The notes below the pieces were generated by a model. It ran no database searches. It saw only the letters and a list, made by a program, of their open reading frames with translations, and had not been told where the DNA came from. Below are positions 47,349 to 48,736 of a stretch of DNA of 64,000 nucleotides, piece after piece (within the stretch, counting starts at the first letter, position 1; each line of letters begins with the position of its first letter). Origin of the DNA: Candidatus Helarchaeota archaeon (GTDB lineage Archaea; Asgardarchaeota; Lokiarchaeia; Helarchaeales; RDOG01); the NCBI GenBank assembly GCA_019058315.1, contig JAHPZH010000008.1, positions 32,001 through 96,000 on the forward strand, written 5' to 3'. The position numbers and the translations under genes are program-made.

Positions 47349-48500
47349 CTAAATTTTGAATTCTTCTGTAAATCTAAAAAATGTATCTTTCAATAATCCT
47401 CCCAAAAATGAAATTAGATTTTGTTTTGTAGATTTAAATCCTACTGGAACATTTTTTTCATCGATAAAGCCAAAGAATAAGGTTGATGCATCAGATACAA
47501 TGCCAAAAAGGTCTGCAGGAGGATATTTTCTCAATTTAATATTATTATAATCTTTATAGCGATCCAGATTTAAGATTTGATCTCTATTGCCTATTTCAAT
47601 GCTAGTTGCAGCCTGAATCATTATTCTGGAAGGTAAAGAGGTCAAATCTAACTGCTCTAATTGTGTGAGTTTTGGAATAAATAAAATAATGTTTCTTTTT
47701 GTATTTTTTATTATATCTTTAATACATTCAATAGCTTGCCTTTCCCCGAAATATATAGTTTCTATCTTTTTCCCTTCATAAAAAGCAAGTTCCTTATTTT
47801 GAGAATTAATTTGAGACTTTAAATCTTCGATTTGTATTTGTAGTTGTTTAACACTTAATTCGGGAACTAAATCAGATTTTTCACTTAATTGTTTAATTTT
47901 TAAAGAAGCTTCATTTAATTTTTCTTTTAATCCGTATATTTCATCATCTTTATTTTTCAAAGTTTCTTCTAAATCCGTAAGTTTTTTTGCAAATTTAGGA
48001 TCTTTAGTTGTTAATGAACGTTCCCTCTCATATTCGCGAATTTTTTCTTCTAATTTGGTTAATTCTTGAGTTTTAGATTTTTCTTGGTCTAATTTTTGTT
48101 CAAGTTCATTATTCAATTTATTTATTCTATCTATTTCTCTGGATTTTTGTTCACTTTCATCCAAATACTTATTTTCTATTTCTTTACACCGATTATCAAC
48201 AATGGAATATTTCATTTCCCAGTCTTTTTCGACCTTTATGAGTTTATCCTGTAATTCCTTAACTTTTTCTAAGCTGGATGTTGAATATTGTTTGATAAAT
48301 TCATCCTTTTTTTCGAGTTCAGGTTTTATGCTTTTTAATTCTACATTTAATTCCATCTTTTCTCTTATTAGATTTTGAATATCTGTCGCATATTTTTTTT
48401 GAATTTCCAGAAGTTTAAGCTTTAACTCACTAATTAATTTGTCTTTTTCTTTTATTGTATTTCTTAATCGCCATACATCTGCTTCTTCATCTAGACTCAA
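47349..48500 (-). CDS. Coiled-coil protein with a C-terminal TrmB/PLD-like alpha-beta domain
   Basis: About 240-aa heptad region, then YFGERQAIECIKDIIKNTKRNIILFIP...GIVSD. Confidence 0.6.
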   Translation of the reverse strand: MSLDEEADVWRLRNTIKEKDKLISELKLKLLEIQKKYATDIQNLIREKMELNVELKSIKPELEKKDEFIKQYSTSSLEKVKELQDKLIKVEKDWEMKYSIVDNRCKEIENKYLDESEQKSREIDRINKLNNELEQKLDQEKSKTQELTKLEEKIREYERERSLTTKDPKFAKKLTDLEETLKNKDDEIYGLKEKLNEASLKIKQLSEKSDLVPELSVKQLQIQIEDLKSQINSQNKELAFYEGKKIETIYFGERQAIECIKDIIKNTKRNIILFIPKLTQLEQLDLTSLPSRIMIQAATSIEIGNRDQILNLDRYKDYNNIKLRKYPPADLFGIVSDASTLFFGFIDEKNVPVGFKSTKQNLISFLGGLLKDTFFRFTEEFKI

Positions 48501-48585
48501 CTTATATCCCCGTTTCTGTTTTGTTTCATGTAAATATAAAATATTACTAATAGTTTAATTTAAAGAAAGGTATTCAGTTTTTATA

Positions 48586-48654
48586 GGCGTTCAGACGGCT
48601 CTTTCCAAAATCATCATCTTCAACTGACTCACAGAACCTGTTCTTCATTACGCC
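48586..48654 (-). ncRNA. Box C/D 2'-O-methylation guide sRNA
   Basis: GGCGU-A-[C AUGAAGA]-ACAGGUUCUGUGAGUCAG-[D' UUGA]-AG-[C' AUGAUGA]-UUUUGGAAAGAGCCGU-[D CUGA]-ACGCC; 5-bp terminal stem; TATA-like TTTATTA about 25 nt upstream. Confidence 0.88.
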
Positions 48655-48736
48655 ATGATTATATAATTTTGAAATCTAATAAATATTTTTAGTTAATTTA
48701 ATAGGAATGGGAAATTTATGAAATACAATAAATTTA

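What the first reader, a model, noticed from the sequence alone, without database searches (positions are those of the whole stretch)
48586..48654. Unannotated box C/D sRNA targeting the peptidyl-transferase centre in the register of eukaryotic U49/SNORD49
Seen: all four boxes (C AUGAAGA, D' UUGA, C' AUGAUGA, D CUGA), a 5-bp terminal stem GGCGU/ACGCC, an upstream TATA-like element, and 16-18-nt guides, longer than the 10-12 nt usual in thermophilic archaea. The D guide UGGAAAGAGCCG is complementary to CGGCUCUUUCCA, which fits the conserved LSU segment after GAUGU (E. coli ~2507-2518). The +5 rule gives the C2510-equivalent as target. From memory, to be verified: vertebrate SNORD49 has a guide ending GCCGU-CAGA that methylates the equivalent 28S cytidine. 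Inference: this may be an archaeal counterpart of a eukaryotic snoRNA-guided modification.
Basis: partly seen in the sequence, partly recalled or inferred. Interest (0 to 1): 0.82.

Follow-up and report, generated by a model that had tools for sequence, protein, structure and literature searches.

The report
Asgard box C/D methylation guide RNA
A real, conserved but lineage-restricted 69-nt box C/D guide RNA of an Asgard archaeon that most likely directs ribose methylation of a 23S rRNA cytidine next to the peptidyl-transferase centre: an ordinary kind of RNA aimed at a hotspot other archaea also target.

Summary
The element is real. On the minus strand (48586-48654) there is a 5-bp terminal stem, box C AUGAAGA in K-turn geometry, box C' AUGAUGA and box D CUGA. 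Homologues occur in nine related sediment or MAG contigs, always just upstream of the same ~383-aa coiled-coil gene, and they share a conserved TATA block at about -25. The RNA is 88-94% identical where the flanks are 69-76%.

- The proposed D' box UUGA is not conserved. The conserved D' is NUGA at RNA 23-26, which leaves a 9-10-nt D' spacer.
- The predicted target CGGCUCUUUCCA is not in this genome's 23S, which reads CGGCUCUUCCUA.

The D guide forms 8 contiguous pairs next to box D, then a 1-3-nt guide bulge, then 2-5 more pairs. The bulge varies among relatives while both paired blocks are kept. The +5 rule gives C2720, which corresponds to E. coli C2510, human Cm4456 (SNORD49A/B) and Arabidopsis Cm2880.

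Shuffle tests alone do not make the match significant. No RNA data exist, and there is no Rfam match to SNORD49. Published crenarchaeal and M. kandleri sRNAs, and a Nitrosocosmicus sRNA found here, aim at the same one or two nucleotides. This is therefore a new member of a known kind, not a special Asgard-eukaryote link.

The parts
48586..48654 (-). whole box C/D sRNA (69 nt)
   Evidence: Sequence. Nine homologues are aligned in A1. 88-94% identity against 69-76% in the flanks. The covariance model scores 90 bits on itself.
48650..48654 (-). 5' arm of the terminal stem (GGCGU, RNA 1-5)
   Evidence: Pairs with RNA 65-69. Pair 3-67 is C-G in 7 sequences, U.G in L032 and U-A in L037.
48642..48648 (-). 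box C, variant AUGAAGA (RNA 7-13), preceded by the 3-nt K-turn bulge AAU
   Evidence: Invariant in all 9 homologues. The same variant appears in another candidate sRNA of this genome (C5:56815-56878) whose D guide has 10 contiguous pairs to 23S. It also appears in published M. kandleri and S. acidocaldarius sRNAs.
48633..48641 (-). D' spacer (ACAGGUUCU, RNA 14-22), with no convincing target
   Evidence: GG.UU is conserved. No rRNA or tRNA site is consistent across the family. It can pair with the D guide GAGCC.
48629..48632 (-). conserved D' box GUGA (RNA 23-26)
Evidence: NUGA is kept in every homologue as GUGA, UUGA or AUGA.
48618..48628 (-). variable loop between D' and C' (RNA 27-37)
   Evidence: The most variable stretch of the alignment, in both sequence and length.
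48611..48617 (-). box C' AUGAUGA (RNA 38-44)
   Evidence: Invariant in all 9 homologues.
48607..48610 (-). variable 5' part of the D spacer (UUUU, RNA 45-48)
   Evidence: Reads UUUU, CUUU, CAUA, AUUA or UAUA among homologues.
48595..48606 (-). conserved D guide GGAAAGAGCCGU (RNA 49-60)
   Evidence: AGAGCCGU is invariant and GG(A) is conserved. Between them lies A, U or UUU+A. Positions 2-9 from box D pair with 23S 2717-2724. After the bulge, GG(AU) pairs with CC(UA). The +5 nucleotide is C2720.
48591..48594 (-). box D CUGA (RNA 61-64)
   Evidence: Invariant. It abuts the 3' arm of the stem, as a K-turn requires.
48586..48590 (-). 3' arm of the terminal stem (ACGCC, RNA 65-69)
   Evidence: See the 5' arm.
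48672..48690 (-). conserved promoter block AAAAATATTTATTAGATTT, with TATA-like TTTATTAG at -22 to -29
   Evidence: Identical in own, L032 and L036, while the rest of the 5' flank is about 75% identical. Similar A/T boxes sit at the same distance in L037 and L039. Its function as a promoter is inferred.
47349..48500 (-). downstream 383-aa coiled-coil ORF, linked to the sRNA in every homologous locus
   Evidence: The sRNA lies 15-100 nt upstream on the same strand in all 9 loci. Pfam gives only a weak coiled-coil hit.

Best explanation
This is a genuine box C/D sRNA. It is transcribed from its own conserved TATA promoter, and the transcript possibly continues into the downstream coiled-coil gene.

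Inferred mechanism:
1. L7Ae binds the terminal C/D K-turn and the internal C'/D' motif.
2. A Nop5 dimer and fibrillarin assemble on them.
3. The roughly 12 nt upstream of box D pair with the 5' strand of 23S helix 90 (GAUGU-CGGCUCUUCCUA). There are 8 Watson-Crick pairs at guide positions 2-9, a 1-3-nt guide bulge, then 2-5 more pairs.
4. Fibrillarin then 2'-O-methylates the nucleotide opposite guide position 5. That nucleotide is C2720, the E. coli C2510 equivalent beside the peptidyl-transferase centre.

The D' side has only a 9-10-nt spacer and no identifiable target, so it is probably structural or inactive.

Shown: the sequence features, their conservation, the pairing geometry, and the presence of the protein machinery. 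Inferred: expression, RNP assembly and the methylation itself.
For: Motifs and K-turn geometry are present.

The motif arrangement is enriched over a reversed-genome control: 29 against 7 hits, and 6 against 0 with a stem of 5 bp or more.

Conservation:
- Relatives in other sediment metagenomes align only over 48582-48655 while the flanks diverge.
- Nine homologues were recovered through acyP-bearing contigs. All sit upstream of the same ORF, even where acyP linkage is broken.
- Boxes C, C', D and AGAGCCGU are invariant, while the loops vary.
- The terminal stem shows a C-G to U-A change through a U.G intermediate.
- The sRNA is 94% and 88% identical where the flanks are 69-76%.

Machinery: fibrillarin and Nop5 are adjacent genes, and L7Ae is present.

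Target:
- The helix 90 site is the top-ranked rRNA/tRNA site for the own guide.
- It is the best or among the top three for every homologue.
- Relatives read UAGGA-A-AGAGCCG or UAGGA-UUU-AGAGCCG. Each is the exact complement of CGGCUCUUCCUA split by a variable bulge.
- The only substitution inside the conserved own-type guide (A51U in L036) falls on the bulged or mismatched position.
- A complete 16S of the sister genus has no better site, and none of the 27 detected tRNAs contains CGGCUC.

Independent sRNAs aimed at the same spot:
- Sac-sR7, IHOsR165, MKAsR45, TtesR150 and MKAsR7 carry GAGCCG-type guides (targets by my own +5 reading of the published sequences).
- A dual-guide sRNA in two Nitrososphaeria genomes has GAAGAGCCGU-CUGA.
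Against: - The complementarity alone is not statistically significant. 194 of 1000 shuffled guides reached the same ungapped score. 56 of 150 (own) and 11 of 150 (L037) reached the same duplex energy.
- Continuous pairing is only 8 bp, and the conserved bulge is atypical for archaeal guides.
- Competing sites at LSU ~1021 and ~2696 have similar energies.
- Spacer lengths of 9-10 and 16-18 nt depart from the roughly 12-nt archaeal norm.
- The target set is incomplete. 5S rRNA was not found, part of the 16S is unassembled, and only 27 tRNAs were detected.
- Not found in the sister genus or in 150 other genomes of the class, although the sister genus has the identical target site.
Confidence: 0.6

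Rival explanations
1. It is a real box C/D sRNA, but the helix 90 match is coincidental. The D guide would then act on another RNA: the nearby 23S site around position 2696, an unassembled rRNA or tRNA, or an mRNA. Alternatively it is an orphan or chaperone-type sRNA.
For: Shuffled guides match the rRNA/tRNA set as well in 19-37% of trials. LSU ~2696 and ~1021 score within 0.5 kcal/mol of the top site for the own guide. An exact 12-mer complement exists at C10:62133-62144. The target set is incomplete.
Against: - Two conserved guide blocks flank a bulge of varying length and match adjacent target nucleotides in every homologue.
- The C10 site lies in no known RNA, and about one such 12-mer is expected by chance.
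- Unrelated archaeal sRNAs use near-identical guides on this helix.
Confidence: 0.22
2. It is mainly a cis-acting leader element of the downstream 383-aa coiled-coil gene, for example an L7Ae-binding K-turn that controls translation or stability, and not a trans-acting methylation guide.
For: The element lies 15-100 nt upstream of the same ORF, on the same strand, in all nine loci, even after rearrangements that separate it from acyP. L7Ae binding to mRNA K-turns has been proposed in archaea (PMC5539422, title and abstract listed; I did not read the paper).
Against: A K-turn leader would need neither an invariant 8-12-nt antisense block next to box D nor a second C'/D' pair. The sRNA has its own conserved TATA at the right distance from its 5' end. 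Archaeal sRNAs are often co-transcribed with neighbouring genes (my own knowledge), so linkage does not exclude guide function.
Confidence: 0.1
3. It is a chance occurrence of short box-like motifs in AT-rich intergenic DNA and not a functional RNA.
For: The boxes are short. The reversed-genome control gives 7 four-box hits. Rfam gives no hit at gathering threshold.
Against: The element is a conserved island with invariant boxes, a compensatory stem change and a conserved promoter across nine loci whose flanks have diverged or been rearranged.
Confidence: 0.03

Closest known systems
Archaeal box C/D sRNAs that target 23S helix 90 (S. acidocaldarius sR7, I. hospitalis sR165, T. tenax sR150, M. 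kandleri sR45 and sR7; Dennis et al. 2015, PMC4644070)
   Same: Same RNA class, and the same antisense core (A/G)AGAGCCG against CGGCUC(U/C)U. Sac-sR7 even shares AAAGAGCCG. By my +5 reading, MKAsR7 points to the same nucleotide (C2510 equivalent) and the others to the neighbouring 2509. Helices 90-93 are described as a methylation hotspot.
   Different: There is no detectable sequence homology outside the guide. Here the guide carries a conserved 1-3-nt bulge, the spacers are 9-10 and 16-18 nt rather than about 12, and the host is a low-GC sediment Asgard archaeon rather than a hyperthermophile.
Dual-guide C/D sRNA of Ca. Nitrosocosmicus agrestis and one other Nitrososphaeria genome (found here; I do not know whether it is annotated)
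   Same: Identical guide/box junction GAGCCGU-CUGA, so the same register and the same predicted target (C2510 equivalent). It has a terminal stem whose variation is compatible with pairing.
   Different: There the antisense element is the D' guide, with 9 uninterrupted pairs, and box spacing is more regular (14-nt D' spacer, 12-15-nt D spacer). The rest of the sequence is unrelated. It was found in only 2 of 121 class genomes.
Eukaryotic SNORD49A/B (U49), the guide for human 28S Cm4456 (old Cm4426); the equivalent Cm is mapped in Arabidopsis (Cm2880) and listed for Ostreococcus (Cm2711, predicted there from snoRNA genes)
   Same: The same rRNA nucleotide is predicted by the +5 rule, 42 nt before the A-loop Um in all of these species. 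From memory only, U49 also ends its antisense element in GCCGU before the box.
   Different: No Rfam SNORD49 match at E<=10. U49 uses its D' side (from memory). The site is not listed as methylated in yeast or P. abyssi in the table of PMC11542601, which for those species lists only sites shared with plants. The archaeal RNA family is confined to one small clade, so common descent is not shown.

Membership tests
Archaeal box C/D sRNA | Box C (RUGAUGA) near the 5' end and box D (CUGA) near the 3' end | tested here: met
   AUGAAGA (one departure from consensus, a variant seen in published archaeal sRNAs) and CUGA. Both are invariant in 9 homologues.
Archaeal box C/D sRNA | Terminal stem that juxtaposes C and D in K-turn geometry (stem, 3-nt bulge, tandem G.A) | tested here: met
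   The 5-bp stem abuts box D, with a 3-nt bulge AAU before GA. One compensatory change and one wobble change in the stem. Covariation is too sparse to be statistically decisive (121 of 500 shuffles reach the observed value).
Archaeal box C/D sRNA | Internal C' and D' boxes | tested here: met
C' AUGAUGA is invariant.
Archaeal box C/D sRNA | Antisense element of about 10-12 nt directly upstream of D or D', complementary to rRNA or tRNA | tested here: inconclusive
   8 contiguous pairs at positions 2-9 with 23S helix 90, then a bulge and 2-5 more pairs. Not significant by shuffling alone, but supported by the conservation pattern. No target was found for the D' spacer.
Archaeal box C/D sRNA | Spacers of about 12 nt between C-D' and C'-D | tested here: not met
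   Spacers are 9-10 nt and 16-18 nt across the family. Published archaeal sRNAs such as Sac-sR7 also depart from 12 nt, so this is a typical feature and not a strict one.
Archaeal box C/D sRNA | The genome encodes L7Ae, Nop5 and fibrillarin | tested here: met
   Fibrillarin at C3:1273552-1274235 (310 bits), Nop5 next to it (218 bits), and L7Ae at C5:287009-287287 (107 bits).
Archaeal box C/D sRNA | Expressed as a discrete ~50-70-nt RNA bound by fibrillarin/Nop5, with the target nucleotide 2'-O-methylated | not testable with these tools
   No RNA run is listed for this DNA. No modification data are available.
SNORD49 / U49 (Rfam RF00277) | Sequence and structure match to the family model | tested here: not met
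   No hit at gathering threshold or at E<=10 on the 351-nt and 81-nt stretches. Only generic sub-threshold C/D families appear.
SNORD49 / U49 (Rfam RF00277) | Guides 2'-O-methylation of the LSU cytidine equivalent to human C4456 | tested here: inconclusive
   The +5 rule places the target at own C2720. Its 42-nt spacing to the A-loop U equals that of human Cm4456/Um4498 and Arabidopsis Cm2880/Um2922. The methylation itself is untested.

The most novel reading that the evidence does not exclude
The conserved bipartite guide (8 bp, a 1-3-nt bulge, then 2-5 bp), the asymmetric 9/16-nt spacers and a D' spacer that mimics the target and pairs with the D guide may mark a relaxed, eukaryote-like or self-gated sRNA architecture in this Asgard lineage. 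Cm at the C2510 equivalent would then be an ancestral archaeal modification that eukaryotes inherited and now make with U49.
Probability: 0.12. Interest if true: 0.6.

Novelty: new member of a known kind. Interest (0 to 1): 0.35.

Why it matters
No catalogue of box C/D guide RNAs in Asgard archaea turned up in the searchable literature. A validated example with its promoter, homologues and a covariance model is therefore useful for annotation.

The predicted target coincides with a cytidine that is 2'-O-methylated in humans and plants (and predicted in a green alga). That adds one data point to the question of which rRNA modifications near the peptidyl-transferase centre are shared between archaea and eukaryotes. 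The same spot is targeted by unrelated sRNAs in Crenarchaeota, Methanopyrus and Nitrososphaeria, and this family is confined to one small clade. The finding therefore illustrates recurrent targeting of a hotspot and gives no special evidence about eukaryote origins.

The conserved guide bulge is a small mechanistic oddity that can be tested in vitro.

Tried and rejected
- Rfam at gathering threshold over the whole window: no hit.
- BLAST of the 69 nt against 40 relatives: only low-complexity GAAGATGATGA matches inside coding DNA, for example G001:C23.
- Pattern TGATGA-N(1-12)-AGAGCCGNCTGA in 161 genomes of the class: own genome only.
- Covariance model R1 in 151 class genomes: own genome plus two weak hits that lack box D and are not homologues.
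- Filter-free R1 search upstream of distant homologues of the 383-aa ORF in G001, G002, G004 and G006, and in L042: nothing.
- Sequencing runs: no RNA holder listed, so expression could not be examined.
A 7-bp match of the own D' spacer to the 16S 3' end (GGAACCUG) does not keep its register in relatives.
- The exact 12-mer complement at C10:62133-62144 is not in any Rfam RNA and fits chance expectation.
- The bacterial-type promoter and terminator scan is uninformative for an archaeon.
- An alternative parse with box C at RNA 4-10 (GUAAUGA), giving a 12-nt D' guide, was rejected. It puts AA where the K-turn needs GA and shortens the stem to 3 bp.
- Exact positions of published archaeal target labels could not be read from the supplementary alignment because its spacing is lost. 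I derived the targets from the published sRNA sequences instead.
- The genome contigs and metagenome contigs pattern scans gave 7 hits. Five look like chance matches in high-GC or bacterial DNA, one is a further family member (L058) and one is the Nitrosocosmicus sRNA.

Full report
**What is in the sequence.** The feature lies on the minus strand of 48586-48654. The 69-nt RNA reads, 5' to 3':
- GGCGU, then AAU
- GA-A-GA (so box C is AUGAAGA, RNA 7-13)
- ACAGGUUCU
- GUGA
- GUCAGUUGAAG
- AUGAUGA (box C')
- UUUUGGAAAGAGCCGU
- CUGA (box D)
- ACGCC

The 5-bp stem GGCGU/ACGCC abuts box D. On the 5' side it is followed by a 3-nt bulge and then GA, which is the layout of a C/D K-turn. A TATA-like TTTATTAG lies 22-29 nt upstream of the first G.

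Rfam has no match at gathering score. Below threshold, eight of the ten weak matches on the 81-nt stretch are box C/D families, seven of them spanning essentially the whole element, on this strand. SNORD49 is not among them.

**Is it more than chance?**
- A four-box pattern allowing one substitution in C and C' found 29 places in the 5.8-Mb genome against 7 in the reversed genome. With a terminal stem of 5 bp or more it found 6 against 0.
- A stricter K-turn-geometry scan gave 33 against 10.
- Another candidate, C5:56815-56878, uses the same AUGAAGA variant for both C and C'. Its D guide has 10 contiguous pairs to 23S.
- The genome encodes fibrillarin and Nop5 as neighbours, plus L7Ae.

**Conservation.**
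- Contigs from other sediment metagenomes were laid on the locus. A close strain has two changes within the 69 nt, eleven in the 85 nt towards the downstream ORF (48501-48585), and at least six plus an indel in the stretch towards acyP.
- A more distant relative aligns only across 48582-48655, with diverged flanks and a 1.1-kb insertion beside it.
- Close homologues of the neighbouring acylphosphatase led to contigs from MAGs labelled Helarchaeota, Promethearchaeota and Hodarchaeota, and from Logan and JGI assemblies.
- Eight further loci (seven distinct sequences) were recovered this way. One more came from a metagenome pattern scan (L058).
- In every locus the RNA sits 15-100 nt upstream of the same ~383-391-aa coiled-coil ORF on the same strand. 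This holds where an ARMT1-like gene has been inserted between it and acyP (L035, L037, L039) and where the pair is inverted (L040, L041).
- In alignment A1 the stem, box C, box C', box D and AGAGCCGU are invariant. The D'-C' loop and the first four nucleotides of the D spacer vary freely.
- Identity to L032 and L036 is 94% and 88% within the RNA, against 69-76% in the flanks.
- The block AAAAATATTTATTAGATTT containing the TATA element is identical in those three loci.
- Stem pair 3-67 changes from C-G to U-A in L037, with U.G in L032. With nine sequences this is suggestive but not statistically decisive.

I conclude that this is a real RNA gene (probability about 0.9).

- The proposed D' box UUGA (RNA 32-35) is not conserved. 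It reads UUAA, CUAA or UUUU in relatives, and the close-strain variant at 48621 is exactly its G.
- The conserved D' is NUGA at RNA 23-26 (GUGA, UUGA or AUGA).
- The layout is therefore C, a 9-10-nt spacer, D', a 10-11-nt variable loop, C', a 16-18-nt spacer, D.
- Only the 12 or so nucleotides next to box D are conserved. The guides are not unusually long; the spacers are asymmetric.

**The target.**
- The 23S gene is at C5:105496-108654. It reads GAUGUCGGCUCUUCCUACCC at 2712-2731.
- Counting from box D, guide position 1 (U) faces U. Positions 2-9 (GCCGAGAA) form eight Watson-Crick pairs with CGGCUCUU. Position 10 (A) faces C. Positions 11-13 give G-C, G.U and U-A.
- RNAduplex prefers a bulged A followed by GG-CC.
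- Position 5 pairs with C2720. This C lies 42 nt before the A-loop U in GGGGC-U-G. E. coli C2510/U2552, human Cm4456/Um4498 and Arabidopsis Cm2880/Um2922 have the same spacing (PMC11542601).
- SNORD49A/B is the assigned guide for human Cm4456, old numbering Cm4426 (PMC9941101).

**How strong is the target assignment?**

By complementarity alone it is weak:
- 194 of 1000 shuffled guides reach the same ungapped score on the 6.5-kb rRNA/tRNA set.
- 56 of 150 shuffles (own guide) and 11 of 150 (L037 guide) reach the same duplex energy.
- Two other 23S sites come within 0.5 kcal/mol for the own guide.

Three things raise it:
1. The family pattern. L037 and L039 read UAGGA-A-AGAGCCG and L038 reads UAGGA-UUU-AGAGCCG. 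Each is the exact complement of CGGCUCUUCCUA interrupted by a bulge of different length. In L036 the only substitution within the own-type guide is at the bulged position. Two conserved blocks that match adjacent target nucleotides across a variable bulge are what selection for this target would produce. My rough estimate for such a box-anchored bipartite match arising by chance in 6.5 kb is 0.002-0.03.
2. No better site exists in a complete 16S of the sister genus or in the detected tRNAs. The single exact genomic 12-mer complement lies in no known RNA and is expected by chance.
3. Independent precedent. Published RNA-seq-supported sRNAs carry near-identical guides: Sac-sR7 (CAAAGAGCCGAA), IHOsR165 (AGAAAAGCCGAG-CUGA), MKAsR45, TtesR150 and MKAsR7 (PMC4644070 supplement). 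By my +5 reading they aim at the 2509 equivalent, and MKAsR7 at the 2510 equivalent. Helices 90-93 are a described hotspot. A pattern scan of species genomes also turned up a dual-guide sRNA in Ca. Nitrosocosmicus agrestis and one other Nitrososphaeria genome. Its D' guide GAAGAGCCGU-CUGA has the same register and nine uninterrupted pairs.

I put the target assignment at about 0.65-0.7, given that the RNA is real.

**The D' side.** No rRNA or tRNA site fits the D' spacers of the family in one register. The conserved GGUUC can pair with GAGCC of the D guide. RNAalifold and the single-sequence fold both predict this helix (z = -2.3). Its variation is on one side only and is wobble-compatible. 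This may be a free-RNA structure, or it may be a coincidence arising because the spacer resembles the target. An earlier unchecked note of this scan reports self-complementary spacers in another sRNA of this genome. I did not test that note.

**Distribution.**
- The covariance model found the RNA in none of 150 other species genomes of the class.
- It was not found upstream of the distant homologues of the coiled-coil ORF in four genomes of the order.
- The sister genus has the identical 23S target sequence.
- The Nitrososphaeria sRNA is likewise present in only 2 of 121 genomes sampled.

These narrow, scattered distributions fit the fast turnover of archaeal guides around hotspots. They argue against reading this RNA as a vertically inherited ancestor of U49.

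**Verdict.**
A specific evolutionary counterpart relationship is not shown, and the pairing is interrupted.
- It is a new member of a known kind.
- Expression and methylation remain untested because no RNA data are available.

Noticed in passing
L062:1456-1585 (-) = Ca. Nitrosocosmicus agrestis NZ_VUYS01000006.1; L063:1456-1585 (+): A dual-guide box C/D sRNA in two Nitrososphaeria genomes. Its D' guide CGACGAAGAGCCGU-CUGA pairs over 9 nt with 23S CGGCUCUUC in the same register (C2510 equivalent). Both guides are conserved, and the stem varies in ways compatible with pairing.
   Followed up: partly
own genome C5:56815-56878 (-) and C2:196989-197043 (+), outside the window: Two further likely C/D sRNAs. 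The first has AUGAAGA as both C and C', and its D guide has 10 contiguous pairs to 23S near position 2153. The second has an 18-nt D spacer with 11 contiguous pairs to 23S near position 2538.
   Followed up: partly
window 47349-48500 (-): A 383-aa coiled-coil protein (only weak Pfam coiled-coil hits) whose gene is always immediately downstream of the sRNA in relatives. It may be co-transcribed with it. Its function is unknown.
   Followed up: partly
L035:2506-3363, L037:842-1699, L039:2807-3664: An ARMT1-like gene (285 aa, opposite strand) is inserted between acyP and the sRNA in some relatives. In L040 and L041 the sRNA plus coiled-coil gene are inverted relative to acyP.
   Followed up: no
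own genome C12:1-897 and C5:1-360; G032:C2:450044-450885: The 16S rRNA is broken at contig ends in the own assembly, and about 200 nt around positions 930-1150 are missing. In G032 the 16S match also stops at model position 828. This could be an assembly break or an insertion in the 16S.
   Followed up: no
own genome, G001, G032: The Rfam 5S rRNA model found no 5S gene in any of these three Asgard genomes, including one that is 100% complete in 10 contigs.
   Followed up: no
window 48633-48637 with 48597-48601 (-): The D' spacer GGUUC is complementary to GAGCC of the D guide. The spacer therefore resembles the rRNA target and could mask the guide in the free RNA.
   Followed up: partly
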